Part shown: positions 19,095 through 59,705 of the stretch, one piece after another
Numbering within the stretch: the stretch's first letter is position 1
Layout of the letters: each line of letters starts with the position of its first letter
Assembly (NCBI GenBank): GCA_903895725.1
Contig: CAITUV010000048.1
Coordinates: 8,474 to 72,473 of the forward strand
DNA from: an uncultured Myxococcales bacterium
GTDB lineage: Bacteria; Myxococcota_A; UBA9042; CAIXZC01
Direction of reading: 5' to 3'
DNA length: 64,000 nt
Position numbers and translations under genes: made by a program
Notes under the pieces: model-generated
What the model saw: the letters and a program-made list of their open reading frames with translations, nothing else
Databases searched by the model: none
Told to the model about the DNA's origin: nothing

Positions 19095-19095
19095 C

Positions 19096-24797: not shown

Positions 24798-24826
24798 TTG
24801 ACTTGCGGACGAACAAGCGCTATTGG
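24798..24826 (+). promoter_or_regulatory. Candidate promoter for the nuo operon (TTGACT - 17 nt - TATTGG).
   Basis: -35 is 5/6 to consensus; -10 is weak. It lies 28 nt upstream of the nuoA ATG, with a GGAGG RBS in between. Confidence 0.2.
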
Positions 24827-24853
24827 TGCGCGCCGATTTGGTGCGGAGGTTCC

Positions 24854-29989: not shown

Positions 29990-29991
29990 GC

Positions 29992-32073: not shown

Positions 32074-32086
32074 GGGGGAGCTCGAG

Positions 32087-33751: not shown

Positions 33752-33762
33752 GAGGGAAGGCC

Positions 33763-38554: not shown

Positions 38555-38610
38555 GCCGAATGCACACACTTGGCTCCTGGAAGGCGGCTCTAGACCGTGA
38601 AGGAGGCCCC

Positions 38611-39486: not shown

Positions 39487-39495
39487 GGTGGGGGA

Positions 39496-44447: not shown

Positions 44448-44466
44448 GCTCAGGGACGCGTGATGG

Positions 44467-44496
44467 GGGCCGGACGAGAGCGTTCCGGTCCGGCCC
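44467..44496 (+). terminator. Strong intra-operon hairpin GGGCCGGAC-(12)-GTCCGGCCC followed by 'GCTTTG', between hisAIE and hisD.
   Basis: Perfect 9-bp GC-rich stem. It may be a partial terminator, an attenuator or an mRNA-stability element. Confidence 0.3.
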
Positions 44497-44527
44497 GGCT
44501 TTGAAGTAGTCATCGGGAGGCAGGTAC

Positions 44528-45799
44528 ATGAGCGGCTCGGTGCTGCGCAGGGTAGGGGCTGGCGAGGTCGAAGCGCTTCGAAGAAATGCCGTGGATCCGC
44601 GGGCGCTTGCCATTGCCTCCGAGATCGTGTTGAGGGTGGAGCGTGGTGGGTTCGAAGCCGCCGTTCTCGAGGCTCGCCGCCTTGGGGACCTCCCGGACGG
44701 TGCTCCGCCGATCCTCGATGCCGCCGCCTGCAGGGCCGCACTGCTGGCGCTGCCAGGGGAGCAGCGCTCTCTCCTGGAACGAACCGCCTCTAGGATCCGG
44801 GAGTTTGCGTCAGCGCAGCGCAGAGCGTTGATTTCCATGTCCGTGAGCGTGCCGGGCGGTACCGCCGGACACGAGGCCGTTCCGGTCGAGACCGCAGGCT
44901 GCTACGCACCGGGGGGGCGGTTTCCGCTGCCTTCGTCGGTGCTGATGACCGCAGTGACCGCACGGGTCGCCGGGGTGGAGAAGGTGTGGGTGGCTTCCCC
45001 GAAGCCGACTGCCGTCACGATGGCCGCGTGCGCCGTGGCGCAGGCCGACGGGCTCGTGACGTTCGGAGGGGCTCAGGCCGTCGCCCTGCTGGCTCTCGGC
45101 GGCGGCCCCGTGCCCCGCTGCGACGTGATCGTGGGTCCGGGAAACGCGTACGTGACCGCCGCCAAGTACCTGGTTTCCGCCTATGCGGGAATCGACATGC
45201 TGGCAGGACCTTCGGAGCTGGTCGTGGTGGCCGACGGGAGTGCCCGGCCTGACGTGATCGCGATGGATCTGTTGGCCCAGGCCGAGCACGATCCGGATGC
45301 CCTGCCGGTGCTGGTTGTGTTCGATGAGCGGGTTGCCATGGAAGTCGAGCGGGCATTGGCCGAGGCCCTTGCGGAGCTCGACACTCGGGAGACTGCATCG
45401 GCCTCCATCGCCAGGGGGTTCTGGGTGCTGGCCGACTCGATGGAGCAGGCTGCCTCCGTCTGCAATGCTCTGGCACCGGAGCATCTGCAGCTCTCCATGG
45501 CGGATCCGGCGGGCCTCCGATCCCTGTTGCGTCACTACGGGGCGCTCTTCCTGGGGGACGGTGCCTGCGAAGTCCTGGGGGACTACGGCATCGGGCCCAA
45601 TCATGTGCTGCCGACAGGCGGCGCCGCCCGACGCTCCGGAGGGCTGTCGGTGTTCAGCTTTCTGAGGCTGCGAACCTGGTTGCGGGTGGAAGATTCTCTT
45701 GCCGCGGACCCGGTGCTGGCGGACGCAGAGGCATTGGCGAAGCTGGAGGGGCTGTCGGCGCACTCGTTGGCGGCTTGGCTCAGGCGGCTCCCGAGCTGA
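44528..45799 (+). CDS. hisD: Histidinol dehydrogenase
   Basis: RBS GGGAGG. 'DMLAGPSELVVVAD...QAEHDP...GPNHVLPT'. Confidence 0.9.
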   Translation: MSGSVLRRVGAGEVEALRRNAVDPRALAIASEIVLRVERGGFEAAVLEARRLGDLPDGAPPILDAAACRAALLALPGEQRSLLERTASRIREFASAQRRALISMSVSVPGGTAGHEAVPVETAGCYAPGGRFPLPSSVLMTAVTARVAGVEKVWVASPKPTAVTMAACAVAQADGLVTFGGAQAVALLALGGGPVPRCDVIVGPGNAYVTAAKYLVSAYAGIDMLAGPSELVVVADGSARPDVIAMDLLAQAEHDPDALPVLVVFDERVAMEVERALAEALAELDTRETASASIARGFWVLADSMEQAASVCNALAPEHLQLSMADPAGLRSLLRHYGALFLGDGACEVLGDYGIGPNHVLPTGGAARRSGGLSVFSFLRLRTWLRVEDSLAADPVLADAEALAKLEGLSAHSLAAWLRRLPS

Positions 45800-45835: not shown

Positions 45836-47428
45836 TCAGTGACTGAAGTGCCTGGTGCCAATGAAGACCATGCGAATGTCCAGCTCGTCACAGCGGCGGA
45901 TCACTGCCTTGTCCCGGATGGACCCCCCGGGCTGGAACACGTTGCGAACCCCGGCCATGGCACATTGCTCGATGCTGTCCGCGAACGGGAAGAACCCGTC
46001 GGATACGAGGTAGGATTCCGAGAGTCGGGCAGACACGTAGGCCTCATCCCCTTCTCGTCGGAGGTTTTCGGCGGCCTTGCCCAGCGCCAGCTTCGTGGAA
46101 TCCACCCGGTTGGGCTGACCGCACCCCATTCCCAGGAGCTGGCACACTCCGTCAGGTCGTCGGCGGACCAGGGCGATGGCGTTGGAGCGGAGCTGACGGG
46201 CCGCGATGACGCCGAAGGCCAGCAGCTCCTCGTCCAGGGAATCGAGCCGGGCTCGAGTCACCAGCTCCAAGCGTTCCCAGAGCACCGAGTCCGTCTGCTG
46301 GGCGAGCAGCGCTCCATGGAGATGCCTTCGCACGGTGGGCGCCCGCAGGGAGGCACAGTCGAACCGCACGATCCTCAAGGATTCGAGCCCTCTGAGCCAG
46401 GCAGCGGCATCCGGAGTGAAATCGGGTGCGCAGACCACTTCGACGAGCCGCCGCTGCGACTTGTCCGGCGAGTCGAGACGGAAAGCCGCAACGCACTCCC
46501 GGTCCACCGGACGGTTCCATGCCACGATTCCCCCGAACGCCGAGAGCGGGTCACCGTCCCAGGCAGCGGCGAGAAGAGACGAGGCGCTTCGTCCCATGGC
46601 CAGGCCGCACGGGTTCTGGTGCTTGACCACGGCACATCCGGGGGCCGGAAGATCCTTGACCGCGTCAAGCGCTGCCTGGAGATCGGTCATGTTGTTGTAG
46701 GACAGAGGTTTGCCTCCGAGAAGCTCGATGTCGGCCACCGAGGTGGCCGCGTTCCGCTCCCGGAAGAGCCATGCCTCCTGGTGCGCATTCTCGCCGTACC
46801 GAAGCGTGCTCCCCCGCTCGAAGGACAGACGGAGGGAACGCACGCCATGACGCGCGTCAAATGCTGAGGCAATGCTCGCGTCATAGTCGGCTACTCGGTG
46901 GAAGGCTTCGAGCATGAGCCGGTCCCGCGTGCGGCGAGACAGGGCACCTCCGGACGAGTCCAGCTCCGAGGCCAACGGCGCATACTGGGCGGGGGACGTG
47001 GCAACCGCAACGAACTCGTGGTTCTTGGCCGCGGCCCGCACCATCATCGGGCCCCCGATGTCGACCTGCTCGACCAGCGCAGCCAGATCGTCTCCCCGTG
47101 CCGCCGCCGCCTCGAACGGGTAGAAGTTGCAGACCACGAGGTCGATGGGCAGAACGCCGAGCGCCGTTGCCTCCTCCGCGTCCCGCTCCCGGTGGAAGAG
47201 GAGGGATGCGGCCAGGGCAAATGAGAGGCTCTTCATTCGGCCCCCGAAGGCCTCTGAGTGGCCCGTGAGCGCACCGATGTCCGCCACCGGGTACCCGGCA
47301 CTGCGTAGATGGCGGGCCGTCCCTCCGGTCGAGAAGAGCTCGCACCCATGGCGCACCAGCACCTCCGCCAGCTCGAGGAGGCCCGACTTGTCCCAGACAC
47401 TGATCAAGGCTCGACGGATCTTCATCAT
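45836..47428 (-). CDS. purH: Bifunctional AICAR transformylase / IMP cyclohydrolase
   Basis: 'MMKIRRALISVWDKSGLLELAEVL...' MGS-like N-terminus. 'GGIVAWNRPVD', 'SDGFFPFADSIE' AICARFT motifs. Confidence 0.9.
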   Translation of the reverse strand: MMKIRRALISVWDKSGLLELAEVLVRHGCELFSTGGTARHLRSAGYPVADIGALTGHSEAFGGRMKSLSFALAASLLFHRERDAEEATALGVLPIDLVVCNFYPFEAAAARGDDLAALVEQVDIGGPMMVRAAAKNHEFVAVATSPAQYAPLASELDSSGGALSRRTRDRLMLEAFHRVADYDASIASAFDARHGVRSLRLSFERGSTLRYGENAHQEAWLFRERNAATSVADIELLGGKPLSYNNMTDLQAALDAVKDLPAPGCAVVKHQNPCGLAMGRSASSLLAAAWDGDPLSAFGGIVAWNRPVDRECVAAFRLDSPDKSQRRLVEVVCAPDFTPDAAAWLRGLESLRIVRFDCASLRAPTVRRHLHGALLAQQTDSVLWERLELVTRARLDSLDEELLAFGVIAARQLRSNAIALVRRRPDGVCQLLGMGCGQPNRVDSTKLALGKAAENLRREGDEAYVSARLSESYLVSDGFFPFADSIEQCAMAGVRNVFQPGGSIRDKAVIRRCDELDIRMVFIGTRHFSH

Positions 47429-47528: not shown

Positions 47529-48890
47529 TTAGAACGTGTAGACCACGGTGGTCGTGTGCGAGCCGACGGAGATGGTCACGTTGTCCACGACCCCTTCGGC
47601 ACCGCCCGGAATGTAGAAGCTTGCTGTGCCCGTGGCATCGGACAGCGGAGACTCGCTCTTGGTGTAGCCGTCGGTCCCGACGATGCTGAAATTGATGGTG
47701 CAGCCCGGGATCGGGGGAATCGTTGAGGCCGTGACCGTGACTCCTTCGCCCGGGCCCGGGTCGACCGGGTTGGGGGTCGCACTGACGCCGGAAACCTGCT
47801 CGCACGTGCCGAACTGGGAGGGATCGGCCGGAGTGACCGTCGGCGGTCCAGGGGGAGTTCCGGTGTTCGGATCACCCGGCTCGAAGTCGACCACGACGAC
47901 CTGGCCGCCATCCACGCCGAAGTCCTCGATCACGATGGGCTCCTTCCCCTCGACCTGGATGATCAGCGTCCCCTTTCCCGGGAACTGGAGAGGCACGACC
48001 TCACCGACCTTCCCTTCGTGGGTCTGCATCGTGCAGTAGCCGCCGTCGACGCTGTCGCTCTTGCCACCGCTGCAGTAGCTCCACAGGAATTTCACGCCCA
48101 GGCCGATCGCCGCAGCGCCCAGGATGGTACCTCCGACCAGCACGCCTCCGGATGCACCGGCAAGCACGAGGCCGGCCTTGACCACGAATCCGCCCGCCAC
48201 CGTAGAGCCGGCAGCCAGACCGGTCCCGACTGCGTCGAGCGTCTGCGTCTTCTTCAGCTCGTTGACCGCCTGGTAGTACTGATCGTCGTCGATCCGCCCT
48301 TCGTCATGCGCCTTTTCGAGCTTGGCAATCTTCTCCTTGGTCGTTCCGATGAGCTGGCCGACGTTGAAGGGAAGGGTCACTGGCACGCCCGGCACGGTCA
48401 GGATGGGGCCGTCCGCCTTGCCCATGGAGTCGCCCTTGTACCCGGCAAACTGCTTGGCATAGCCGTTGAGGGTCAGGACCGAAACCAGCCACTGGTCGCC
48501 GGCGGCGTTGACCGCCTTGGTCTTCTCGATGAACGTGGCGACGTCGGACGTGTCGGCCATGGCAAACACCTGGTACGCCTCGATGAAGTCCTTGTTGGAG
48601 GACAGGACCTGTCCGGCAGCAGTCTGGTAGGCGGTCACGAGCTCGGGCAGGGAGCCGGTCTGCGGCACCTGGACCTCGGGCAGCGTCACCCCCTCGGGAG
48701 GAGTGAACGAAGTGTCCGCGGTTCCCACTACGTCGACCCCGGGCGGAACGACCAGGGAATCGGGCTCTCCGACCACGTCGTACGTGTTCTCGAAGACGTC
48801 GGAGCCTTCGAAGAGCCAGTCGCAGCCGGTGCCGGAAATGGCGAGGAGAGCACTCACGCTCAACAGGAGAACGGTCTTGGCAATGTTCAT
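47529..48890 (-). CDS. Lipoprotein with a central glycine-zipper hydrophobic segment and a C-terminal Ig-like (Big-type) domain
   Basis: Strong RBS GAAGGAGGTGA before 'MNIAKTVLLLSVSALLAISGTGC'. 'GLAAGSTVAGGFVVKAGLVLAGASGGVLVGGTILGAAAIGLGV' (GxxxG-rich). The track ORF to 49001 overextends. Confidence 0.75.
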   Translation of the reverse strand: MNIAKTVLLLSVSALLAISGTGCDWLFEGSDVFENTYDVVGEPDSLVVPPGVDVVGTADTSFTPPEGVTLPEVQVPQTGSLPELVTAYQTAAGQVLSSNKDFIEAYQVFAMADTSDVATFIEKTKAVNAAGDQWLVSVLTLNGYAKQFAGYKGDSMGKADGPILTVPGVPVTLPFNVGQLIGTTKEKIAKLEKAHDEGRIDDDQYYQAVNELKKTQTLDAVGTGLAAGSTVAGGFVVKAGLVLAGASGGVLVGGTILGAAAIGLGVKFLWSYCSGGKSDSVDGGYCTMQTHEGKVGEVVPLQFPGKGTLIIQVEGKEPIVIEDFGVDGGQVVVVDFEPGDPNTGTPPGPPTVTPADPSQFGTCEQVSGVSATPNPVDPGPGEGVTVTASTIPPIPGCTINFSIVGTDGYTKSESPLSDATGTASFYIPGGAEGVVDNVTISVGSHTTTVVYTF

Positions 48891-49119
48891 GGAAGTCACC
48901 TCCTTCAATCCGGCAGATGGTACTGTTCCGGGCCGAGCTGTCAATTCCGAGGGAGCGTCTCCCGTGCGGCAGGCCGTGCGGGACGCCGCAGGCGGGCGCA
49001 ACCGCTATCGAGCTGCCCGAAACTGCAGTCGGCTTGACGTGTGCGTGCGCCTGGGGGACGATACGGCCGACCTGGCGGGAGGGAGGCAGGTGGCGATCGA
49101 AGGGCGGACTGGCACACCG

Positions 49120-49923
49120 ATGTTTCAGCGAAGCGAGCTGCTGCTCGGTCCGACGACCGTGAAGGCACTCTGGGGCACCCGGGTGATTCTGTTCGGCGTC
49201 GGCGGGGTCGGGAGCTGGTGCGCTGAGGCGCTGGTAAGGAGCGGTGTTGGTCACCTGGCGATCGTGGACTCGGACAGCGTCTGTATCACAAACGTGAACC
49301 GGCAGCTCCAGGCGACGCCGGCGACGGTAGGCCGCATCAAGGTGGAGGTGCTGGCCCGACGACTGAGGGAGATAAGCCCCGACGCGGAGATCGTGGTCTT
49401 CCCGATTGCCTATGACGAGAGCACTTCGGACTCGTTCGGACTCGAGCGCTACGACTATGTGCTCGATGCCATCGATTCCCTGAGTCACAAGCTGGGGCTC
49501 ATCCGGAAGGCATTGTCGCTCGGGTGTCGGCTGTACTCGTCCATGGGCGCTTCGGCACGGCTCGACCCGACGAAGGTGAGGGTCGGGTCCCTCTGGAAGA
49601 CCCGAGATTGCCCGCTCGCCATGCGGGTTCGCAAGCGGCTCAGGAAGCACGGAATCACGACTGCTCTCACGGTGGTATACAGCGAAGAGCTGCCGATGGA
49701 GAGCCTGGAAACCTCGGATTGCGGGACTCCTGCCTGCCACTGTCCACGGCGGGCCATCGCTGAATCGGGCGAAGAGGTGGAGGGGCACGAATGGTGCAGC
49801 TCCAAAGCGTACATCAACGGTTCAATCATGCCGGTCGTGGCGACGTTCGGGATGTCCCTGGCGAGTCTCGTGATACGGGATGTGCTGGAGCGCAGCGGCG
49901 GCAGAGAGGGGAAGGGCCCATGA
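49120..49923 (+). CDS. tcdA: tRNA threonylcarbamoyladenosine dehydratase (ThiF/MoeB-family E1-like, TcdA/CsdL)
   Basis: 'ILFGVGGVGSWCAEALVRSGVGHLAIVDSDSVCITNVNRQ'. An alternative GTG start lies at 49090. The track start at 48703 overlaps the minus-strand gene. Confidence 0.8.
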   Translation: MFQRSELLLGPTTVKALWGTRVILFGVGGVGSWCAEALVRSGVGHLAIVDSDSVCITNVNRQLQATPATVGRIKVEVLARRLREISPDAEIVVFPIAYDESTSDSFGLERYDYVLDAIDSLSHKLGLIRKALSLGCRLYSSMGASARLDPTKVRVGSLWKTRDCPLAMRVRKRLRKHGITTALTVVYSEELPMESLETSDCGTPACHCPRRAIAESGEEVEGHEWCSSKAYINGSIMPVVATFGMSLASLVIRDVLERSGGREGKGP

Positions 49924-52088
49924 GTCGGCTTGCTGCGGTTTTGTGCATCGTGGCGGCTCTCGCGATTCCGGCAACGGCGGAGGCTGTGACGATGAGCCTC
50001 GTCAGTGAGAGCCAGCCGTTCCCCGGAATCACGCTGAAGCAGTACAAGACGACCTCGCCCAAGACCAACTGTTGGGCGGTGCTCGTCGACCTGTGCGCCG
50101 ACTACGTCCACGTGGATGCGACGCCGGATCCTTCCGGACCCAAGACCGTGGCGCAGTTCGGACAGGACTCGGGCGTCCAGGTGGCGGTCAACGGGGACTT
50201 CTACAAGTCGCCACCGGCCCACGTATACGGCGCCGCTGTCGGGGGAGGGATTCAGTGGCCGTCGGTCAAGCAGGGCTTTGACCCGAGCTACTCCGGCGAG
50301 TGGTTTTTCATGAAGTACGGCTGGCTCGCATTCGGACACGACCTGGTCGAGCACAACCACACGAAATGGGTCAAGCAGAACGTCGCCGGGCTGACCTCTG
50401 GCTGGGAGCCGACCGACGTGGTGACGTCGATTCCGGCTGGAACGCTGGCGCTGGTCAGCGGGTTCTCCCAGCTTGTGATTGATGGGGAGCCGGTGACCTG
50501 CCCGGACCCGACGGCCAGCAGCTGTTTCCCGGACCGCTCCGACATGCGGGATCGTCACCCTCGCACCGCCATGGGAATCACGGAAGATCGAAAGACCTTC
50601 ATCCTGTTCGTGGTCGACGGTCGGACCGATGTTTCCATCGGCATGTACGGGACCGAGCTGGCCGACGTGATGCACAAGCTGGGGGCGCACCAGGCCTTCA
50701 ACCTGGACGGTGGCGGGTCGAGCCAGCTCTGGGTGAAGGGCAAGGGGACGGTCAACGATGCCAACGGCAACAACAACGGCGGAGGCCTTCGCCCCGTGCT
50801 CAATCATTGGGGCGTTTTTGCAGGGCCCGCGAGCGGGAAGGCCAAGCGACCTGGCCATTGCGTGTCGAGCCCGGCATGCGCCGTGCTGCCTCCGGAAGGC
50901 GGTACGCTGGACGACTCCGGACCGTGTTTTGCTGCGTTTGGGACGCCGGAGTACTGGCGAACCGAGGCTGCTGGCTTCGAGGGGGGCCTGCACTGGACCA
51001 ATGCCTGGAAGACGACGGTCCCCGACAACTGGGCCTGGTGGCAGGTCCACCTGGCCGAGGGGGGTAAGTATCGGGTCGACTACTATGCGGTCCCTGAGTT
51101 CGCCGTGTTCAAGAAGACCCACTACGAGGTAAGGGCGTCGGGAACCTTGACGAAGCTCTCCGTGGATCAGTCGATTGCCGACGGTTGGACCGAGCTGGGG
51201 GAGTTCGACTTCTCGGCAGGCGGGGGGCAATGGGTGTCCGTCTTCGATGACACGCCGGCAACCGTTGCGGATGACCAGCACATCGTGGCGGATGCCATCC
51301 GACTGGTCCGCCTGGATCCGTGGTGTGGGAACGGGCAGTGCGACGGGACCGAGGAGTGCGGCTCGTGCGTCGAGGACTGCGGGGAGTGCCCCGAGCCTTG
51401 CGGCAACAGCGAATGCAAGGAGGGCGAGAGCTGCGAAACGTGCCCCGCCGACTGCGGAGACTGCCCCGAGAGCTGCGGCGACGGGTCGTGTGGGGCGGAG
51501 GAGAGCTGCAGCAGCTGCCCGGCTGATTGCGGGGAGTGCCCGGAAACATGCGGCAACGGGAGCTGCGCCTCGGGGGAGAGCTGCGAGAGCTGCCCCGAGG
51601 ACTGCGGGGAGTGCTCCGGCTCGTGCGGGAACGGTCTGTGCGACGCGTGGGAGAGCTGCGCCACCTGTCCGGCCGAGTGCGGCAACTGTCCCGATACCTG
51701 CGGCGACGGCCTGTGCGACGAGTGGGAGAACTGCGGAACCTGTCCGAAGGATTGCGGCTCCTGCGTTCCGGACGTTCAGGAAGCACGGCCCGAGAGCGAC
51801 ATTCAAAGCGAGCCCGAGCTGGTGCCGGAGACCCTCCCGGAAGCCGAGGTCCTTTGCGCCGGCGATGCCTGCCCCGTGCATGGTGACAGCGCGTCCTTTG
51901 AGGAGCCGTGGGAAGTGGCCCCGTCGGTCGAGCCGGCTCCGGAATCGAATGGCGATTCGGCGGGCAGCTGCAGTGCTGCGGTCCATCGACGCCCAGACAG
52001 CGGACCGGTCGCGCTCCTTGCTCTGGCCATGCTGCTCATCGCGATCATCCTGAGACGAAGGCCTTGCGGCGCTGGTGGAGCGGATTGA
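49920..52088 (+). CDS. Secreted protein with a phosphodiester-glycosidase (NAGPA 'uncovering-enzyme'-like) domain, a 6x25-aa CGxGxC-x-CPxDCGxC repeat array, a Pro/Glu linker, and a MYXO-CTERM-like C-terminal sorting signal
   Basis: ATGA overlap with tcdA. Signal peptide 'MSRLAAVLCIVAALAIPATAEA'. NAGPA-like 'GVQVAVNGDFY...RTAMGITEDRKTFILFVVDGR...AFNLDGGGSSQLWV'. Repeats 'CGNSECKEGESCETCPADCGDCPES'. C-terminal 'GSCSAAVHRRPDSGPVALLALAMLLIAIILRRRP'. Confidence 0.85.
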   Translation: MSRLAAVLCIVAALAIPATAEAVTMSLVSESQPFPGITLKQYKTTSPKTNCWAVLVDLCADYVHVDATPDPSGPKTVAQFGQDSGVQVAVNGDFYKSPPAHVYGAAVGGGIQWPSVKQGFDPSYSGEWFFMKYGWLAFGHDLVEHNHTKWVKQNVAGLTSGWEPTDVVTSIPAGTLALVSGFSQLVIDGEPVTCPDPTASSCFPDRSDMRDRHPRTAMGITEDRKTFILFVVDGRTDVSIGMYGTELADVMHKLGAHQAFNLDGGGSSQLWVKGKGTVNDANGNNNGGGLRPVLNHWGVFAGPASGKAKRPGHCVSSPACAVLPPEGGTLDDSGPCFAAFGTPEYWRTEAAGFEGGLHWTNAWKTTVPDNWAWWQVHLAEGGKYRVDYYAVPEFAVFKKTHYEVRASGTLTKLSVDQSIADGWTELGEFDFSAGGGQWVSVFDDTPATVADDQHIVADAIRLVRLDPWCGNGQCDGTEECGSCVEDCGECPEPCGNSECKEGESCETCPADCGDCPESCGDGSCGAEESCSSCPADCGECPETCGNGSCASGESCESCPEDCGECSGSCGNGLCDAWESCATCPAECGNCPDTCGDGLCDEWENCGTCPKDCGSCVPDVQEARPESDIQSEPELVPETLPEAEVLCAGDACPVHGDSASFEEPWEVAPSVEPAPESNGDSAGSCSAAVHRRPDSGPVALLALAMLLIAIILRRRPCGAGGAD
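51324..51764 (+). repeat. Six tandem 75-bp (25-aa) coding repeats, CG(N/D)GxCxxxExCxxCPxDCGxCPxx
   Basis: Periodicity visible at both DNA and protein level. Confidence 0.7.
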
Positions 52089-52142
52089 CAACGGGCTTGC
52101 GCGTGTGGTTTGCTGGCAGGAAGGTTGACGGTGGAGGTCGGC

Positions 52143-55100
52143 ATGATCGCACGGAAGCACTTCTGGCTCGTTGCTTCGCTCCTGTTTTCTGCCGGATGCG
52201 GCGGCGGGGGAGAGATCATCTCGATCGAGGATGTTGCGCTGGACCAGGCGGGAGAGACTGCGGACGCGGTCATGGCTCCCGAGGTCTCCGAGGCCGCGGC
52301 GGACCTCGTCCCCATCCCGGATGCGACACCCGAAGCAGCAGTCGATGCCACGCTGCCGGACGGCTGGGTCGAGCCCGGCGCGTTTGGAGCCCCGTGCTTT
52401 GGCGGGACCGATTGTGCCTCAGGGCTCTGCATCCGGACGACGGCCGGCATGCAGTGCACGGGGCCGTGCGTCGACGAGTGCCCGCAGGGGTTCAAGTGCG
52501 TTTCGTACGAGGGAGGCGGGCCGGACATCATGTTCGTGTGCGTCGATCCGTTCCTGACCCTGTGCCGTCCCTGCTCGACCAATGCGGACTGCCAGGGCAA
52601 CGAGGATGCGTGGGCGGGGGAGCGGTGTGCGTCCTACGGTGCTGCCGGCAGCTTCTGCTCCATGCCGTGTGCGCAGGTGGACGACTGTCCGGCAGGCTAC
52701 CTCTGCGAGGAGACCGTGGATTCAAGCGGGGCATCGTCGCTCCAGTGCGTGCTGGCCGAGGGCGAGTGCGAATGCCCGCAGTGGTTTGCGGACGAGGGGG
52801 CTTCGACCTCGTGCTTCGTGGAGAACGAGTGGGGAACGTGCTCCGGTACGCGGGCCTGCACGGCAGCGGGGCTGGCGGCGTGCACGGCAGCGGTCCCGGC
52901 CAAGGAGAGCTGCAACGGGCTCGACGATGACTGCGACGGCCAGGACGACGAGGAGACTGCAGGCGGAACCTGCCCCGTCGTCAACGAGCTCGGCACCTGC
53001 CCGGGCACCACGCTCTGCCTGGACGGAACCGAGACCTGCCAGGGCGCTGCCGCGGCCCCGGAGCAGTGCGACGGGTTGGACAACAACTGTAACGGTACCA
53101 AGGACGAGGGGTTCCCCGATGCAGACGGGGACGGGACCGCAGATTGCCTGGAGAACGACAAGGACAACGACCTGGTGCCGGACTACCTCGACAACTGCCC
53201 GTCGGTGGCCAACTCGGAGCAGAAAGACTTCGACCTGGATACCCTGGGCGATGCGTGCGATCCCGACGACGACGGCGACAAGACCGGGGATGCAACGGAT
53301 TGTGCCCCGCTCGACGACAAGGTGTACCCCGGTGCGACCGAGACCTGCGACGGCAAGGACAACGACTGCAACTACGTTGTGGACGAAGGGTTCCCGGATG
53401 CCGACGTCGACGGCTGGAAGGACTGCACCGACCCGGACGACGACAACGACGGCAGCGCGGATGCTGCAGACTGTATGCCGCTTGACGCGGAGGCTCACCC
53501 CGGTGCAGTCGAGACCTGCAATGGCAAGGACGACGACTGCGACTTTGCCATCGACGAGACCTTTCCCGATCTGGATGGCGACGGACAGGCGGACTGCGTG
53601 GACAGCGACGTCGACGGCGACGGTCTCGGCAACGGCGACGACAACTGCCCCCAGGTCGCCAACGCGGATCAGACCGACCTCGACGGCGACCAGGTAGGCG
53701 ATGCCTGCGACCCGGACAAGGACGGCGACGCCATCCCCGAGCTTGCGGACAACTGCCCGCTTACCAAGAACCCGGCCCAGGCCGATACCGACCAGGATGG
53801 ACAGGGCGATGCCTGCGACGATGACGACGACGGCGACGGCTACGGCGACGGCGCCGACAACTGCCCGCTTGCCAAGAACCCGTCCCAGGCCGACCTCGAC
53901 CAGGATGGCGTCGGAGACGCGTGCGAGGGGGATCTGGACGGTGACGGTACTCCGGATTCCCTCGACTGTGCGCCGCTGAACGCCACCGTGCACCCCGGGG
54001 CATTCGAGGCCTGTAACGGCGCGGACGACAACTGCAATGGAACCGTGGACGAGGGGGCACCGGACACGGACTTCGACGGTTTCAAGAACTGTGTCGACCC
54101 GGACGATGATGGGGACGGCGACCCGGATGACGCGGACTGTGCGCCGCTCAACCTTGCGGTGCACCACGCTGCGGTCGAGAGCTGCAACGCCATCGACGAT
54201 GATTGCGACGGCCAGATCGACGAGGGGCTCGGGGCACTTTCGTGCGGGAAGGGCGTGTGCGCTCACAAGATTCCCGCCTGTCTCGACGGCAAGCAGCAGA
54301 CTTGCGATCCATTCCAGGGAATCCAGGAAGAAGTGTGCGACGGCAAGGACAACGATTGCGATGGGTTGACGGACGAGGACCAGGGCAAGCTGACGTGCGG
54401 CCTCGGGACGTGCGTGCACACCGTACCCGCCTGCCAGGAGGGGAAGGACAACGTGTGCGACCCCGCAGCCGGTGCCGTCCAGGAAGTGTGTGACGGCAAG
54501 GACAACGACTGCGATGGGGCGGTGGACGAGGAGCTGGGACAGCTCGCCTGCGGCAAGGGCGTCTGCTTCCATACGGTCAAAGCCTGCATCGGCGGAGAGC
54601 CTCAGCCATGCGAACCGTTCCAGGGAGCTTTGCCCGAAGCCTGTGACGGGCTGGACAACGACTGCGACGGAAGCGTCGACGAGAATCTGGGGGAGACATC
54701 CTGCGGCCTGGGTCCCTGCGAGCACACGGTCCCCTACTGTGCCGGGGGCAAGGTGCAGCAGTGCAACGCGTTCGAGGGCGCTGCCGTCGAGGCCTGCGAC
54801 AGCGTGGACAACGACTGCGACGGGCTGGTCGACGAGGACATGGGGTTTGCGAGCTGCGGTCTGGGCGTCTGCTTCCACATCGTCAAGCTCTGCTCCGGCG
54901 GGGTGCTCCAGGTGTGCGATCCGCTGGAGGGCGCTGCCGGGGAGGCGTGCGACGGCGTGGACAACGACTGCGATGGCATCGCCGATGACGGGTTGGGCGA
55001 CATCACCTGCGGCCTGGGGGAGTGCGTCCACACGGTTCCCGTCTGCAAGGAGGGCAAGCAGAACAGCTGTGATCCGCTCGAGGGGGAATCCCCCGAGGCG

Positions 55101-55955
55101 TGCGACGGCAAGGACAACGATTGCGACGGTCAGACGGACGAGTCCTTCGCCGACCAGGACGGCGACGGCCAGGCAGACTGCGTCGATCTCGACGACGATG
55201 GCGACGCGGATCCGGATGGGACGGACTGTGCACCGCTCGATCCGACCATCGGCTCCAACCAGAAGGAGAAGTGCTTCGACGGCAAGGACAACGACTGCGA
55301 CGGAAGCACCGACGACGATCCGGAGTGCATTCTCAAGAGCTGCGCCGAGCTCCTGGCCTCGAACCCCGCACTGCCGTCGGGGACCTACACGATTGACCCG
55401 GACGGCGGGGGCGGGAAGCCCTCGTTCGCCGCGTGGTGCGAGATGGCGCTGGACGGAGGGGGCTGGACCCTGGTCTGGAAGCACTCCTACTACGAAGTGG
55501 GGGCACCGACGGACACCATGCGCTTCTACAGCACCAGCGCAAAGGAGTGCAAGGACACGACGGCCGGATGGTGCAATGTGCCGGGCAAGCTGTCCGTTGG
55601 CAAGACGCAGCAGCTCGTCATCGCCACCTACCAGGGGACGACCGTTTACGCTTACAAGGGGGACTTGAATCCCAAGATCGACTCGAGCTGGGAAGGCGCC
55701 ATACTCAAGAACGCAACCAGCCTGGTCGACAAGTGCGTCAACAACGTGGGAGTGGCCCCGGAGCCCGAGGTGGGAGGGCATGCGATGCCCGGCATCACGT
55801 TCGACAAGGCGACCCCCAACGACTATGTGTCCAATTGCGATACGGATCGGTACGGAGGGGGCTCGGATTGCCGCTGGGAGAACTGCGGTCTGCCGGGAAA
55901 CATCGCCCCCTCGAGCACTCACGTGCAGATGACCGTGATGATCTACGTGCGCTGA
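52143..55955 (+). CDS. Cys-rich lipoprotein with a thrombospondin type-3 repeat array, seven or so MopE-like CDGKDNDCDG modules, and a C-terminal fibrinogen-related domain (FReD)
   Basis: RBS GGTGGAGG. 'MIARKHFWLVASLLFSAGCGGGG'. TSP3: 'DNCPSVANSEQKDFDLDTLGDACDPDDDGD', 'DNCPQVANADQTDLDGDQVGDACDPDKDGD', 'DNCPLAKNPSQADLDQDGVGDACEGDLDGDG'. FReD: 'CAELLASNPALPSGTYTIDPDGGGGKPSFAAWCEMALDGGGWTLVWKHSY...'. Confidence 0.85.
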   Translation: MIARKHFWLVASLLFSAGCGGGGEIISIEDVALDQAGETADAVMAPEVSEAAADLVPIPDATPEAAVDATLPDGWVEPGAFGAPCFGGTDCASGLCIRTTAGMQCTGPCVDECPQGFKCVSYEGGGPDIMFVCVDPFLTLCRPCSTNADCQGNEDAWAGERCASYGAAGSFCSMPCAQVDDCPAGYLCEETVDSSGASSLQCVLAEGECECPQWFADEGASTSCFVENEWGTCSGTRACTAAGLAACTAAVPAKESCNGLDDDCDGQDDEETAGGTCPVVNELGTCPGTTLCLDGTETCQGAAAAPEQCDGLDNNCNGTKDEGFPDADGDGTADCLENDKDNDLVPDYLDNCPSVANSEQKDFDLDTLGDACDPDDDGDKTGDATDCAPLDDKVYPGATETCDGKDNDCNYVVDEGFPDADVDGWKDCTDPDDDNDGSADAADCMPLDAEAHPGAVETCNGKDDDCDFAIDETFPDLDGDGQADCVDSDVDGDGLGNGDDNCPQVANADQTDLDGDQVGDACDPDKDGDAIPELADNCPLTKNPAQADTDQDGQGDACDDDDDGDGYGDGADNCPLAKNPSQADLDQDGVGDACEGDLDGDGTPDSLDCAPLNATVHPGAFEACNGADDNCNGTVDEGAPDTDFDGFKNCVDPDDDGDGDPDDADCAPLNLAVHHAAVESCNAIDDDCDGQIDEGLGALSCGKGVCAHKIPACLDGKQQTCDPFQGIQEEVCDGKDNDCDGLTDEDQGKLTCGLGTCVHTVPACQEGKDNVCDPAAGAVQEVCDGKDNDCDGAVDEELGQLACGKGVCFHTVKACIGGEPQPCEPFQGALPEACDGLDNDCDGSVDENLGETSCGLGPCEHTVPYCAGGKVQQCNAFEGAAVEACDSVDNDCDGLVDEDMGFASCGLGVCFHIVKLCSGGVLQVCDPLEGAAGEACDGVDNDCDGIADDGLGDITCGLGECVHTVPVCKEGKQNSCDPLEGESPEACDGKDNDCDGQTDESFADQDGDGQADCVDLDDDGDADPDGTDCAPLDPTIGSNQKEKCFDGKDNDCDGSTDDDPECILKSCAELLASNPALPSGTYTIDPDGGGGKPSFAAWCEMALDGGGWTLVWKHSYYEVGAPTDTMRFYSTSAKECKDTTAGWCNVPGKLSVGKTQQLVIATYQGTTVYAYKGDLNPKIDSSWEGAILKNATSLVDKCVNNVGVAPEPEVGGHAMPGITFDKATPNDYVSNCDTDRYGGGSDCRWENCGLPGNIAPSSTHVQMTVMIYVR
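53157..53950 (+). repeat. Thrombospondin type-3-like Ca-binding repeat array (D-x-D-x-D-G-x-x-D-x-C / DNCP-x-x-x-N-x-x-Q-x-D)
   Basis: Motif recognition; see the parent CDS. Confidence 0.7.
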
Positions 55956-55992
55956 GCAGAAGGTGACAGTCTTTCAACCGGGAGATGCCGTC

Positions 55993-58900
55993 ATGACCAC
56001 TCGCAAGCTGTTTCGGATTACGCTCCTGAGCGTTCTCGTTCCGGCCGTCGGATGCAGCACTTCAGGCAACACGGTGGAGAAACCGGAGCCGGATCTCGGC
56101 ATCGAGGTCGTCGACTCCAGCGTCGCTCCGGAAGTCGTACCCCCGGATGCCATGGAAGTCGAGCCCGAGGTGCCTCAGGTCGAGTTGCTCGTTGAGGCCG
56201 TGGAGGAATCGGGTGGCCCGAAGTGCGCACCGGGCGAAGGGTGCTTCCTGGACCCATGCCAGGAGAACGATTCCTGCCAATCGGGCTGGTGCGTGGACCA
56301 CATGGGGGCCGGAGTCTGCACCATTGCCTGCGAGGAGGAGTGCCCTCCCGGCTGGTCGTGCCAGCAGATCGGCTCGGGTCCCGACGTGAACTACGTCTGC
56401 ATCTCGAACCACGCAAACCTTTGCCGGCCTTGCGGCAGCGGGGACAACTGCAAGAGCCCGGGGGGTGCGGAGGACGTGTGCGTGGACTACGGTGCGGAGG
56501 GCAGCTTCTGCGGGGGAACCTGCAACAGCGACGAGGATTGCCCCTGGGGTTTCTCGTGCATCGAAGCCTCCACGGTGGATGGAATCGAAGTGAAGCAATG
56601 CGTGGCCGATGCGGGAGTCTGCCCGTGTACCGAAAAGTCCGTGAGCCTGGCATTGTGGACCCCTTGCCAGAGCAGCAACGAGCACGGCGTGTGCCAGGGG
56701 CAGAGGGTGTGTACCGAGGCCGGGCTGTCCGCGTGTGACGCGGCTGTGCCCGCACAGGAATCGTGCAACGGCATCGACGATGATTGCGACGGGGAGGTCG
56801 ACGAGCCGCAGCAGGTGGGCGGAGAGTATATTTCGCTCTGCTCGGACGGGAATTCGTGCACGAAGGATCAGTGCGCGGGCGTTGACGGCTGCACTAACAC
56901 GGCGCTCAACGAGGGCGAGTGCATGGACGGAGATGCGTGCACCGTGGGGGACCATTGCCAGGAAGGGACGTGCGTGGGGCTCCCTGTCGCCTGCGATGAC
57001 GGTGACCCCTGCACCGACGACCTGTGCGACGGACTGGGAGGCTGCAAGACCGAGTTCAACACCGCTGCGTGCGACGACGGAGATGCGTGCACGGTCGCGG
57101 ATGGCTGCGTCGAGGGGGTGTGCGGCGGCGTTGCCGTCCCTTGTGAGTGCCAGGCGGATTCCGATTGCCTGTCACTCGAGGATGGCGATGTCTGCAACGG
57201 GACACTGTTCTGCGACAAGGGGAAGTGGCCGTATCTTTGTGCGGTCGAGCCGGGAACCGAAATCACGTGCCCGCTGCCGCCGGCCGGGAAGGATGCGTTC
57301 TGCCAGGCCACTGCGTGCGACAGCGGGACCGGGAAGTGCTCAATCGTCCCGGCTCACGAGGGTTTCGCCTGTGATGACGGGGATGCCTGCACCATCGGTG
57401 AGCACTGCGCCTCCGGAACCTGCGGCCAGGGGGCCGGGCTCGGATGCCAGGACGACAATCCCTGCACGGACGACTCGTGCGAGCCTGGCGTCGGGTGCAT
57501 CCACAAGGCGAACGCTGCACCGTGCAGCGACGGGAACGTGTGCACGACGGACGACATGTGCTCGGCCACTGTATGCGTCGGCGGAGCGCTTCTGGCCTGC
57601 GACGACGGCTCGGTGTGCACCGGCACGGAGACCTGCGATCCTTCCGTCGGCTGCAAAGCGGGCCTCTCCCTCGTGTGCGATGATCAGGACGCCTGCAACG
57701 GAAAGGAGAGCTGCCACCCGGCCAAGGGGTGCCTGGCCGGAATCCCTCCGGTTTGTGACGACTTGAACCCATGTACCGACGACTCGTGCGACCCTCTGTC
57801 GGGGTGCGTTCACAAGGGGAATACCGCCGCCTGTGACGACGGCAACGCCTGCACCACGGGGGACAAGTGCTCGGCAGGAAGCTGCCTCGCCGGTGAGGCG
57901 ACAAGCTGCAACGACGGCAATCTCTGCACGACCGACACCTGCGTGCCGGCCAAGGGATGCATGTTCCTGCTCAACACGGTCCCGTGCGACGACGGCGACT
58001 TGTGCACGACCGGGGACCATTGCTCCCTGGGGGCCTGCATCTCGTCGGGGAAGCTGACCTGCAACGACGGGAATCCGTGCACGGCCGACTCGTGCACCCC
58101 CGGAGCCGGCTGCCAGTTCGTGCCCACCTCGGCCGCGTGCGACGACGGCAATGCGTGCACCTCGGGCGATGCCTGCACCAAGGGCCAGTGCCTCGGGCCG
58201 GACGTGGTGAGCTGCGACGACGACAATGTCTGCACGAAGGACTTCTGCTCCCCGTTGACCGGCTGCGGGCACAGCCCTCTGGCCGGGCCGTGTGAGGACG
58301 GGACCGAGTGCAGCGTCGGGGATACCTGCCAGAACGGAGTGTGCGTGGCCGGGCCACCGCTCGCCTGCGACGATGGGAACCAGTGCACCGTCGACGTCTG
58401 CGACCCCAAGCTGGGGTGCGTGTACAAGGCATTCGTGGGAGGCTGCGACGACGGAAACCCGTGCACCCTGGTGGATGTGTGTCAGGGCACGGTCTGCGCA
58501 CCCGGGTTGCCCAAGGACTGCAACGACGACAACCAGTGCACTACGGACACCTGCGACCCGGCCAAGCTGTGCGTGAACAGCCCGAAGGCCGGCAACTGCG
58601 ACGACAGCAACGCGTGTACGACGGGAGAGGCCTGCCAGGCGGGCGTCTGCAAGGGGGGCACCCCCCTGGACTGCAACGATGGGAAGCCGTGCACGACCGA
58701 CTCGTGCGACCCCCTCCTGGGGTGCGGACACATCGACACTGTCCCGTGCTGCGGGAATGCCAAGCTCGAGGCGGGCGAGGAGTGCGACGACGGAAACATC
58801 GTGGGCGGGGACGGATGCGAGCCTGACTGCAAGCAGTTCACCCCGGTCAGCGTGACGTTCAACAACTGTGGGCAGACGGGCCCGTCGGGGCCAAACCAGA

Positions 58901-59687: not shown

Positions 59688-59705
59688 GTCCCGCGATCAC
59701 GGGAC
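59688..59705. terminator. Hairpin GTCCCG-cgatca-CGGGAC between convergent gene ends. It overlaps the stop codon of the minus-strand gene.
   Basis: Perfect 6-bp stem. Confidence 0.2.

What the first reader, a model, noticed from the sequence alone, without database searches (positions are those of the whole stretch)
49920..52088. NAGPA-like phosphodiester glycosidase with CPxDCG repeat array and MYXO-CTERM
The N-terminal domain resembles the lysosomal 'uncovering enzyme' fold (GlcNAc-1-phosphodiester alpha-GlcNAcase; DUF2233). It is joined to six 25-aa CGxGxCxxGExCxxCPxDCGxCP repeats. The protein ends with a Cys + hydrophobic + RRR tail typical of the myxobacterial MYXO-CTERM sorting signal. 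It is translationally coupled to tcdA through an ATGA overlap. It could be a sugar-phosphodiester processing enzyme for the exopolysaccharide matrix.
Basis: partly seen in the sequence, partly recalled or inferred. Interest (0 to 1): 0.55.

Follow-up and report, generated by a model that had tools for sequence, protein, structure and literature searches.

The report
Surface-anchored myxobacterial sugar-phosphodiester glycosidase
This gene encodes a secreted enzyme of the same fold as the human lysosomal "uncovering enzyme", joined to a sugar-binding module, a cysteine-rich stalk and a myxobacterial-type membrane-anchor tail. It belongs to a large, already annotated but biochemically untested family, so it is a well-built but fairly ordinary find.

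Summary
Window 49920-52088 (+) encodes a 722-aa protein with these parts:
- a signal peptide;
- a NAGPA/DUF2233 phosphodiester-glycosidase domain (Pfam E=1.6e-27; fold match to 3OHG and vertebrate NAGPA; DGGGS motif invariant);
- six exact 25-aa repeats with six Cys each (aa 469-618);
- an acidic linker;
- a Cys + hydrophobic helix + RRR tail.

Its ATG overlaps the stop codon of an upstream TcdA-like gene (ATGA).

The tail fails the MYXO-CTERM HMM (7-11 bits against a cutoff of 20). However, its Cys aligns with an invariant Cys in 64 of 64 homologs, and 19 of those match the HMM at E<=0.1. I read it as a divergent MYXO-CTERM.

The tcdA overlap is kept only in the closest relative (1 of the 84 other loci fetched). 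No neighbourhood is conserved, and no EPS genes are linked. Some orthologs carry a VanY peptidoglycan peptidase domain instead of the repeats.

The repeat is a widespread module with no curated model (3083 clusters), fused to many different exo-enzymes.

Best reading: a lipid-anchored cell-surface enzyme that cleaves sugar-1-phosphodiester links in extracellular glycans. The substrate is unknown. It is a new member of a known kind.

The parts
49120..49923 (+). Upstream ThiF-family, TcdA-like gene (267 aa from MFQRSELL...). Its stop codon overlaps the target's start codon.
   Evidence: Pfam ThiF E=7e-31. The best NCBIfam match is the TcdA equivalog at 132 bits, below its cutoff of 304. The start codon was chosen by inspection.
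49920..49923 (+). ATGA start/stop overlap.
   Evidence: Read directly from the sequence. The same 4-nt overlap occurs in L001.
49920..52088 (+). Whole gene: 722-aa phosphodiester glycosidase family protein, including the stop codon.
49920..49985 (+). Sec-type signal peptide, aa 1-22 (MSRLAAVLCIVAALAIPATAEA).
   Evidence: By inspection: a basic n-region, a hydrophobic core and AEA just before V23. The AF2 model shows a helix at aa 2-14. The homolog consensus starts at the same place. No signal-peptide predictor was available.
49986..50834 (+). NAGPA/DUF2233 phosphodiester glycosidase catalytic domain, aa ~23-305.
   Evidence: Pfam PF09992 E=1.6e-27. PDB sequence hits to 3OHG, 6OZD and 6PKY. Foldseek gives 3OHG at TM 0.69 and 6PKU at TM 0.66. 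pLDDT is mostly above 90.
50706..50720 (+). DGGGS active-site loop, D263-S267.
   Evidence: Invariant in 64 of 64 homologs. It aligns to the DGGGS motif of vertebrate NAGPA and of 3OHG. In human NAGPA the motif holds the catalytic D286 (PMC13474241).
50847..51317 (+). Golvesin_C / CBM35-like carbohydrate-binding beta-sandwich, aa ~310-466.
   Evidence: Pfam PF25275 E=3.9e-13, 50 bits against a cutoff of 31.6. Foldseek matches: 7EHG MiXBM at TM 0.64, CBM35 2WZ8 at TM 0.62, and xanthan lyase 6F2P. Invariant residues are W346, W359, W374, W423, D443 and D458.
51324..51773 (+). Six tandem 25-aa repeats with six Cys each (CGxGxC-x3-E-x-C-x2-C-P-x-D-C-G-x-C), aa 469-618. Presumed disulfide-rich stalk.
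   Evidence: pLDDT is 64-89, with one short helix per unit. No Pfam or NCBIfam model matches.
51774..51968 (+). Acidic, Pro-rich, low-confidence (likely disordered) linker, aa 619-683.
   Evidence: 16 Asp/Glu, 9 Pro and 1 Lys/Arg in 65 aa. pLDDT is below 50.
51969..52085 (+). C-terminal sorting/anchor tail, aa 684-722. It consists of signature Cys C684, a 12-aa spacer, a hydrophobic helix V697-L711, R712-R714, and an 8-aa extension.
   Evidence: C684 lies in a column that is Cys in 64 of 64 homologs, and R714 is at least 90% conserved. The AF2 model shows a helix at aa 695-712. TIGR03901 scores only 6.9-11 bits against a cutoff of 20.

Best explanation
The gene encodes a cell-surface glycan-processing enzyme.

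Steps shown by sequence or model:
- an N-terminal signal peptide;
- a catalytic domain of the NAGPA/DUF2233 fold with the active-site DGGGS loop intact;
- a CBM35-like carbohydrate-binding module;
- a stalk of six disulfide-rich 25-aa units followed by a flexible acidic linker;
- a C-terminal tail of Cys signature, transmembrane helix and Arg cluster.

Steps inferred:
- After Sec export the tail holds the protein in the inner membrane.
- The invariant Cys (C684) is lipidated and a myxosortase (a CPBP-family intramembrane protease encoded elsewhere in the genome) removes the helix.
- The type II secretion system then places the lipid-anchored protein on the outer surface, as shown for Myxococcus xanthus TraA.
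- There the CBM docks on a polysaccharide.
- The NAGPA domain cleaves the glycosidic C1-O bond of a sugar that is joined through its anomeric carbon to a phosphate. This releases the sugar and leaves a phosphomonoester, as the human uncovering enzyme does with GlcNAc-1-P-6-Man.

The sugar need not be GlcNAc. The two residues that read the N-acetyl group in human NAGPA are replaced here by a family-specific, probably disulfide-closed loop.

My preferred target is a foreign (prey or competitor) cell-envelope glycopolymer carrying anomeric phosphodiester links, such as teichoic-acid or secondary-polymer linkage units (GlcNAc-1-P-6-MurNAc), phosphoglycan capsules or phosphomannan, rather than the cell's own matrix. 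That last step is the weakest.
For: Catalytic domain:
- Pfam NAGPA 97 bits.
- PDB sequence hits: 3OHG at E=3.5e-22 and NAGPA chains at E~1e-9 with the family profile.
- Foldseek TM 0.55-0.69 to 3OHG and NAGPA, using a model with mean pLDDT 83.

Active site:
- D263-G-G-G-S267, T236 (aligned to the vertebrate DGQT Thr), R291, and N91/D93/F94 are invariant or nearly so in 64 homologs.
- In human NAGPA the DGGGS motif, D286, T260 and R316 bind the sugar and the phosphate. Mutations at D286 and R316 abolish activity (PMC13474241).

Carbohydrate-binding module:
- Pfam Golvesin_C.
- Fold matches to the xanthan-binding module, CBM35s and a xanthan lyase.
- The domain class is described as carbohydrate-binding and occurs in lectins (PMC9166713).

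Anchor:
- The tripartite tail with its invariant Cys column is present in 64 of 64 homologs.
- 19 of 64 homologs match TIGR03901 at E<=0.1.
- The homologs come from Myxococcota, Polyangia and Bradymonadia MAGs (metagenome-assembled genomes).
- The MrtX/T2SS pathway is shown experimentally for TraA (PMC11980579).

Foreign cell-wall target:
- Orthologs P0030 and P0031 carry a VanY (M15B) D-Ala-D-Ala carboxypeptidase domain between the CBM and the anchor.
- No polysaccharide-biosynthesis genes recur next to the gene in the 84 other loci.
- M. xanthus MYXO-CTERM proteins are mostly adhesins or hydrolases.
- NAGPA domains are fused to peptidoglycan-targeting conflict proteins in Bacillota (10.1101/2025.01.14.632903).
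Against: - No member of this bacterial subfamily has been assayed. From my own knowledge of Das et al. 2013 (paper not held), the only tested bacterial DUF2233 protein, BACOVA_00430, had about 1% of the human enzyme's activity on GlcNAc-P-Man.
- The tail fails the curated MYXO-CTERM cutoff. It has a charged spacer (HRRPD) and 8 residues after the Arg cluster.
- No CPBP/myxosortase gene lies in the 64-kb window. The rest of the genome is unseen.
- The equivalence of R291 with human R316 rests on spacing and invariance, not on a superposition.
- The equivalents of E226/T227 are absent, so the substrate cannot be read off.
- The VanY fusion occurs in only 2 of the 120 listed homologs.
- The CBM resembles modules that bind acidic exopolysaccharides, which would fit a self-matrix role equally well.
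Confidence: 0.6

Rival explanations
1. The enzyme trims or remodels the producer's own exopolysaccharide or matrix, for example by removing phosphodiester-linked sugar caps from EPS while tethered to the cell surface.
For: The CBM35-like domain's nearest structural neighbours bind xanthan and uronic-acid polymers. The protein is surface-tethered, so it sits within the cell's own matrix. The window is rich in large secreted Cys-rich matrix-like proteins.
Against: No glycosyltransferase, Wzx/Wzy or other EPS genes are linked in the window or in any of the 84 homolog loci. Several MAGs carry two paralogs (L016 and L017; L032 and L035), which fits a hydrolase arsenal better than a dedicated maturation step. 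Some orthologs carry VanY fusions.
Confidence: 0.2
2. The tail is only a C-terminal membrane anchor and is not a processed sorting signal. The protein stays in the inner membrane facing the periplasm and acts on the cell's own envelope precursors or on peptidoglycan-linked polymers.
For: The tail scores below the TIGR03901 cutoff. It has a charged spacer and an 8-aa extension after RRR. No sorting protease lies in the window.
Against: The Cys upstream of the helix is invariant in 64 of 64 homologs, which a plain anchor would not require. Many orthologs pass or approach the MYXO-CTERM model. A long stalk, a linker and a CBM are typical of surface display.
Confidence: 0.12
3. The NAGPA-like domain is not catalytic here, and the protein is a lectin or adhesin that binds phosphoglycans.
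For: Activity is untested. The only assayed bacterial homolog was a very poor enzyme (my own knowledge of Das et al. 2013). A CBM and a stalk are also typical of adhesins.
Against: The DGGGS loop, T236, R291 and about 25 further pocket-region residues are invariant across homologs that are only 45-67% identical overall. This is the pattern expected of an active enzyme.
Confidence: 0.08

Closest known systems
Vertebrate NAGPA (mannose-6-phosphate uncovering enzyme; PDB 6PKU, 6PKY, 6U11)
   Same: The catalytic fold is the same (Foldseek TM 0.55-0.67). The DGGGS loop and the DG(Q/R)T Thr align. The overall layout is also alike: signal peptide, catalytic core, Cys-rich stalk, C-terminal transmembrane helix. 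In the human enzyme the stalk holds the core about 5 nm above the membrane (PMC13474241).
   Different: Sequence similarity is weak (phmmer E~1e-3). There is no furin-cleaved inhibitory propeptide. A CBM35-like domain is inserted between the core and the stalk. The stalk is not EGF-like and is unrelated in sequence. The tail is a bacterial sorting signal. The N-acetyl-reading E226/T227 are not conserved, so GlcNAc specificity is not implied.
BACOVA_00430, the DUF2233 protein of Bacteroides ovatus (PDB 3OHG)
   Same: It is the best structural and sequence match for the catalytic domain (E=3.5e-22 with the family profile; TM 0.69). It shares the HPRT...VVDGR...NLDGGGS motifs.
   Different: It is a single-domain 285-aa chain with no CBM, stalk or anchor, and it comes from Bacteroidota.
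MYXO-CTERM surface proteins of Myxococcus xanthus (TraA and about 34 others), processed by the myxosortase MrtX
   Same: The tail has the same tripartite form (Cys signature, hydrophobic helix, Arg cluster), and the protein has an N-terminal signal peptide. The spacer between Cys and helix (12 aa) is similar to the ~13 aa I count in the TraA tail peptide quoted in the Fig. 1F legend.
   Different: The cargo is a different domain. The tail is below the TIGR03901 cutoff, has a single Cys (SCS, not GCGC), and has a charged spacer. I found no phosphodiester glycosidase in the supplementary file held for the M. xanthus paper.
Public homologs annotated 'phosphodiester glycosidase family protein' or 'MYXO-CTERM domain-containing protein' (for example P0001, P0044, P0050)
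   Same: They share the NAGPA + Golvesin_C + Cys/TM/RRR tail architecture. There are 863 or more hits, 44-69% identical over the aligned part for the 120 listed, and 305 loci among species-representative genomes.
   Different: The region between the CBM and the anchor is hypervariable. It holds 0-10 Cys repeats, MopE motifs, or a VanY domain. The window protein has six repeats and its nearest relative P0001 has five.

Membership tests
Phosphodiester glycosidase (Pfam PF09992 NAGPA / DUF2233) | Profile match above the curated gathering score | tested here: met
   97.3 bits against a cutoff of 25, E=1.6e-27, aa 145-300.
Phosphodiester glycosidase (Pfam PF09992 NAGPA / DUF2233) | Fold of the solved family members | tested here: met
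   The AF2 model has pLDDT above 90 over the domain. Foldseek gives 3OHG at E=4.8e-15 and TM 0.69, and 6PKU/6PKY at TM 0.62-0.67.
Phosphodiester glycosidase (Pfam PF09992 NAGPA / DUF2233) | Invariant DGGGS loop with the catalytic Asp (human D286) | tested here: met
   D263-S267 is invariant in 64 homologs and aligns to the DGGGS of NAGPA and 3OHG. Its role is taken from PMC13474241.
Phosphodiester glycosidase (Pfam PF09992 NAGPA / DUF2233) | Phosphate-binding Thr and Arg (human T260, R316) | tested here: inconclusive
   T236 aligns with the DGQT Thr. R291 is invariant and lies 28 residues after the Asp, against 30 in the human enzyme. No alignment or superposition reached it.
Phosphodiester glycosidase (Pfam PF09992 NAGPA / DUF2233) | GlcNAc N-acetyl recognition (human E226/T227), which defines the uncovering-enzyme specificity | tested here: not met
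   In the profile alignment these positions fall on A/S within a family-specific C194...C202 loop, followed by the invariant D205, R206 and D208. The protein is a family member but not an ortholog of the uncovering enzyme.
Phosphodiester glycosidase (Pfam PF09992 NAGPA / DUF2233) | Hydrolysis of a sugar-1-phosphodiester | not testable with these tools
   This needs an enzyme assay.
MYXO-CTERM sorting signal (NCBIfam TIGR03901) | HMM score at or above the curated cutoff (20 bits) | tested here: not met
   There is no hit on the whole protein. The excised tail scores 6.9 and 11.0 bits.
MYXO-CTERM sorting signal (NCBIfam TIGR03901) | Tripartite C-terminus: a signature with an invariant Cys, a hydrophobic helix free of charge and Pro, and an Arg cluster | tested here: met
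   C684; V697-L711 with no charged residue or Pro; R712-R714. The Cys column is invariant in 64 of 64 homologs. Caveats: a charged 12-aa spacer and 8 residues after RRR. Both features also occur in homologs (for example P0025, P0039, P0042).
MYXO-CTERM sorting signal (NCBIfam TIGR03901) | Orthologs carry a recognised MYXO-CTERM at the same position | tested here: met
   19 of 64 homologs match TIGR03901 at E<=0.1. A further 13 and 6 match the MYXO-CTERM-bearing models Mrt_dep_phytase and MXAN_5453_fam. JGI names several of them 'MYXO-CTERM domain-containing protein'.
MYXO-CTERM sorting signal (NCBIfam TIGR03901) | N-terminal signal peptide | tested here: met
   By inspection only (aa 1-22). 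No predictor was available. The homolog consensus agrees.
MYXO-CTERM sorting signal (NCBIfam TIGR03901) | The genome is from Myxococcota and encodes a myxosortase (MrtX/MrtC/MrtP) | not testable with these tools
   Only 64 kb is available. No CPBP-family protein was found among the window ORFs scanned. The homologs are in Myxococcota, Polyangia and Bradymonadia MAGs.
GlyGly-CTERM / rhombosortase signal (TIGR03501) | HMM above cutoff, with a Gly-Gly signature before the helix | tested here: not met
   The excised 50-aa tail scores 15.6 bits against a cutoff of 15.5, the 56-aa version scores 14.9, and the whole protein gives no hit. The match covers the helix and Arg cluster only, and there is no GG motif (the sequence is DSGP).
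Golvesin_C (Pfam PF25275) / CBM35-like carbohydrate-binding module | Profile match above the gathering score, and a beta-sandwich fold | tested here: met
   50 bits against a cutoff of 31.6. Foldseek gives 7EHG at TM 0.64, 2WZ8 at 0.62 and 2W47 at 0.63. Ligand binding was not tested.
Known Cys-rich repeats (TIGR02232 myxo_disulf_rpt/DUF4215, MopE motif PF11617, EGF, NF033662 acid_disulf_rpt) | Profile match of the repeat region | tested here: not met
   The 150-aa repeat region gave no NCBIfam hit at E<=10. In Pfam it gave only a 13.6-bit TSP3_bac hit. For 40 other repeat-rich proteins, no Pfam or NCBIfam family explains the repeat.

The most novel reading that the evidence does not exclude
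This Myxococcota family may be a surface-displayed 'uncapping' or de-tethering enzyme used against other microbes. It would cut the anomeric sugar-phosphate link that ties teichoic acids, other secondary wall polymers or phosphoglycan capsules to their cell wall (GlcNAc-1-P-6-MurNAc is chemically the same kind of bond as the GlcNAc-1-P-6-Man cleaved by the human enzyme). As far as I know, that activity has not been described for any bacterial enzyme. A second, smaller point: the 25-aa six-Cys unit is a widespread extracellular stalk module with no curated model. The layout of NAGPA core, Cys-rich stalk and C-terminal anchor has arisen independently in bacteria and animals.
Probability: 0.15. 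Interest if true: 0.65.

Novelty: new member of a known kind. Interest (0 to 1): 0.3.

Why it matters
If the inferred activity is real, hundreds of uncultured freshwater and soil Myxococcota display on their surface an enzyme that cuts sugar-phosphodiester bonds. That chemistry is otherwise known mainly from lysosomal enzyme targeting in animals, and no natural substrate is known for any bacterial member. Finding the substrate would assign a function to the bacterial DUF2233/NAGPA family. It could also reveal a tool for stripping phosphodiester-linked wall polymers from prey.

The repeat is worth a curated family model. It occurs in more than 3000 protein clusters, attached to proteases, phosphoesterases, PLD and adhesin domains.

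For this particular gene, though, the architecture is already present and sensibly annotated in public databases. Nothing about it contradicts current knowledge.

Tried and rejected
- NCBIfam on the whole protein gave no hit. The MYXO-CTERM model fails on the excised tail. I kept the assignment only on family-level evidence.
- GlyGly-CTERM was borderline on the excised tail. I rejected it because there is no GG signature, no hit in the whole protein, and the lineage is wrong.
- Functional coupling with tcdA is rejected. A tblastn of the window's TcdA-like protein against 83 of the other loci hit only L001, and L084 shows no ThiF neighbour.
- A search for a conserved neighbourhood (ORF clustering over 83 other loci plus the window region) found only compositionally Cys-rich proteins recurring, in 12 loci. 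There were no EPS, sortase or transport genes.
- A regex scan for other proteins with the same kind of tail in the window found none.
- A scan for a myxosortase/CPBP protein in the window found none among the ORFs scanned.
- Das et al. 2013 (DUF2233 structure and function) could not be read. What I say about it is from memory.
- A literature search for the repeat motif (CGDGxC / CPxDCG) returned only unrelated cpxDC gene papers. No phosphodiester glycosidase appears in the held supplement of the M. xanthus MYXO-CTERM paper.
- The word-indexed protein search with the repeat found only 32 hits. The exhaustive search was needed to see its true spread.
- A first attempt to align 80 repeat-bearing proteins failed with a tool error. 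I repeated it with 40.

Full report
**Observation**

The ORF at 49920-52088 (+) encodes 722 aa. Its ATG overlaps the TGA of the upstream ORF (cccATGAgt). The closest relative, L001, has the same 4-nt overlap. This start gives a typical signal peptide and matches the homolog N-termini.

- a NAGPA-like N-terminal domain;
- six 25-aa Cys repeats;
- a Cys + hydrophobic + RRR C-terminus.

The repeats lie at aa 469-618 (nt 51324-51773). All six share the spacing C-x4-C-x5-C-x2-C-x3-C-x2-C, so 36 of the 150 residues are Cys. The copies are 48-64% identical in protein and 57-71% identical in DNA. TRF reports a 75-nt period.

**Anatomy**

Pfam finds two domains, not one:
- NAGPA (PF09992): 97 bits, E=1.6e-27, aa 145-300.
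- Golvesin_C (PF25275): 50 bits against a cutoff of 31.6, aa 361-464.

An AlphaFold2 model built on 64 homologs has mean pLDDT 83:
- pLDDT is mostly above 90 over aa 25-470.
- It is 64-89 over the repeats, each of which has one short helix.
- It is below 50 over aa 618-694, an acidic Pro-rich linker with 16 Asp/Glu and 9 Pro in 65 aa.
- A helix spans aa 695-712.

Foldseek against the PDB separates the two folded domains cleanly:
- The first domain matches the DUF2233 protein 3OHG (E=4.8e-15, TM 0.69) and vertebrate NAGPA catalytic domains (TM 0.55-0.67).
- The second matches a xanthan-binding module (7EHG, TM 0.64), CBM35 modules (2WZ8, 2W47) and the Paenibacillus xanthan lyase (6F2P).

The Golvesin/xanthan-lyase domain class is described as a CBM6/35/36-like carbohydrate-binding domain and occurs in Bacteroides lectins (PMC9166713).

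**Active site**

The 2026 structure paper on human NAGPA identifies these elements (PMC13474241):
- an invariant DGGGS loop;
- D286 and R316, both essential for activity;
- T260 and the backbone of the loop, which bind phosphate;
- E226 and T227, which read the N-acetyl group.

In the window protein, D263-G-G-G-S267 is invariant in 64 homologs and aligns to that loop. T236 aligns to the DGQT Thr. R291 is invariant and lies 28 residues after the Asp, against 30 in the human enzyme. I infer that R291 is equivalent to R316 but could not show it.

The E226/T227 positions are not conserved. They fall in a family-specific stretch with two invariant Cys (C194, C202) and invariant D205, R206 and D208. 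So the catalytic machinery looks intact but the sugar specificity cannot be assumed to be GlcNAc.

From my own knowledge of Das et al. 2013, which I could not retrieve, 3OHG had about 1% of the human enzyme's activity on GlcNAc-P-Man. As far as I could find, no other bacterial member has been assayed.

**The tail**

NCBIfam gives no hit on the whole protein. On the excised tail, TIGR03901 MYXO-CTERM scores 6.9-11 bits against a cutoff of 20. GlyGly-CTERM is borderline (15.6 against 15.5) but matches only the helix and the Arg cluster.

Three findings argue the other way:
- The author of the model writes that the 34-aa HMM is hard to make sensitive across lineages and that membership needs curatorial review.
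- In the alignment of 64 homologs, C684 sits in a column that is Cys in all 64. It is followed by a short spacer of mostly small residues, a helix and an Arg cluster.
- 19 of those homologs match TIGR03901 at E<=0.1. More match models of other MYXO-CTERM proteins. JGI names several of them MYXO-CTERM proteins.

Charged spacers and extensions after the Arg cluster, the two oddities of the window's tail, also occur in homologs. I therefore treat the tail as a divergent MYXO-CTERM-type signal.

[quoted passage not shown] No CPBP protease is encoded in the window, and the rest of the genome is not available.

**Family and context**

The NAGPA + Golvesin_C + Cys/TM/RRR architecture is common:
- 863 or more proteins with E<=1e-5 were found among the 8000 candidates scored.
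- 305 loci were found among species-representative genomes.
- All of the best loci come from uncultured Myxococcota, Polyangia, Bradymonadia or 'Deltaproteobacteria' MAGs, apart from clearly mislabelled bins. Many are from lakes and rivers.
- Public names already include 'phosphodiester glycosidase family protein'.

The segment between the CBM and the anchor is hypervariable:
- Among the 120 best homologs, most of the top 34, plus P0043 and P0060, carry 1-10 CPxDCG units. Nearly all of the more distant ones carry none.
- Some homologs have MopE motifs there.
- P0030 and P0031 have a VanY (M15B) peptidoglycan peptidase domain there.

Gene neighbourhood is not conserved. The tcdA-like gene, the upstream 490-aa protein and the downstream Dicty_CTDC protein are shared only with L001. 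Other loci show unrelated neighbours. Clustering all flanking ORFs from 83 other loci and the window region found no recurring family apart from compositionally Cys-rich proteins.

The upstream gene itself is only TcdA-like: 132 bits against the equivalog cutoff of 304. The ATGA overlap is therefore a local packing feature of one lineage, not a functional link.

**The repeat**

The 150-aa array gave no NCBIfam hit at E<=10, and in Pfam only a 13.6-bit TSP3_bac hit.

An exhaustive HMMER search of 1.84 billion representatives found 3083 proteins at E<=1e-3, 1151 at E<=1e-10 and 171 at E<=1e-30. The 150 best are 203-5949 aa long, usually with many units (median 7, maximum 22).

Named hits from the word-indexed search include Polyangia, Altiarchaeota and Binatia.

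In 40 such proteins the partner domains include trypsin-like proteases, SdrD_B, PLD, calcineurin-like phosphoesterase, CBM96, peptidase M64 and PKD. No Pfam or NCBIfam family accounts for the repeat itself.

It is therefore a promiscuous extracellular spacer module without a curated model. One further copy sits in the FGE-sulfatase protein of this window.

Human NAGPA also carries its catalytic core on a Cys-rich (EGF-like) stalk above a C-terminal membrane helix. The bacterial layout is analogous but not homologous.

**Mechanism and rivals**

- **Best supported (0.6).** A cell-surface, lipid-anchored enzyme held away from the membrane by a disulfide-rich stalk and a flexible linker. Its CBM docks on a polysaccharide and its NAGPA domain cleaves an anomeric sugar-phosphate bond. 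I lean towards foreign cell-envelope polymers as the target. The reasons are the VanY fusions, the lack of EPS linkage, the presence of paralogs in single MAGs (L016 and L017; L032 and L035), the general role of MYXO-CTERM cargo as hydrolases or adhesins, and the use of NAGPA domains in Bacillota conflict proteins. This last step is weak.
- **A plain inner-membrane anchor with a periplasmic role (0.12).**
- **A non-catalytic lectin (0.08).**

**Verdict**

The gene is a new member of an already annotated but uncharacterised family. Interest is modest (0.3). It rests on the unknown natural substrate of bacterial NAGPA enzymes and on the repeat that has no curated model.

Noticed in passing
window 52110-55955 (+): The gene immediately downstream encodes a 1281-aa protein with 13 MopE 'metal-binding' Cys motifs, thrombospondin type-3 repeats and a C-terminal fibrinogen-like GGGWT domain. 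It is absent at the same position in the closest relative L001, where the NAGPA gene is followed directly by the Dicty_CTDC protein. It is therefore a lineage-specific insertion or loss.
   Followed up: partly
window 3335-8614, 8616-13661, 19066-24651, 55963-59682, 59697-63998: The window is unusually rich in giant (1200-1900 aa) Cys-rich secreted proteins carrying MopE motifs, Dicty_CTDC repeats, and DUF4214 and DUF5648 domains. There is also a GH141-like beta-helix/CBM6 protein at 283-3102. Their functions are unknown.
   Followed up: no
window ~17137, inside ORF 15046-18195 (+): A single copy of the same Cys module (CPNGSCEAGETCCTCPADC...) lies upstream of the FGE-sulfatase domain in the FGE-sulfatase/Dicty_CTDC protein. 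This shows that the module is reused within this genome.
   Followed up: partly
homologs P0030 and P0031 (not in the window): These orthologs, 54-55% identical over the aligned core (64% of the query), carry two Golvesin_C stretches and a VanY (M15B) D-Ala-D-Ala carboxypeptidase domain between the CBM and the MYXO-CTERM tail. This hints that the family acts at cell walls.
   Followed up: partly
repeat region, window 51324-51773, and proteins P0153-P0302: The 25-aa six-Cys repeat occurs in 3083 representative protein clusters (171 at E<=1e-30). The named hits span bacteria and archaea. Arrays reach 22 units, and no Pfam-A or NCBIfam model covers the repeat.
   Followed up: yes
protein P0161 (284 aa): A metagenomic fragment is 93% identical over the repeat region and has an identical C-terminal tail. 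The same or a sister organism has therefore been sampled elsewhere.
   Followed up: no
window 47529-49001 (-): A 490-aa predicted secreted protein with a weak Big_1 Ig-like C-terminus and no other family match. It is conserved (83% identical) next to the tcdA-like gene in L001.
   Followed up: no
window 24823-35268, 38560-45799 and 45836-47428: Housekeeping blocks (the nuo operon, the his operon and purH) sit between the clusters of secreted-protein genes. The region is therefore chromosomal core, not an obvious mobile island.
   Followed up: no
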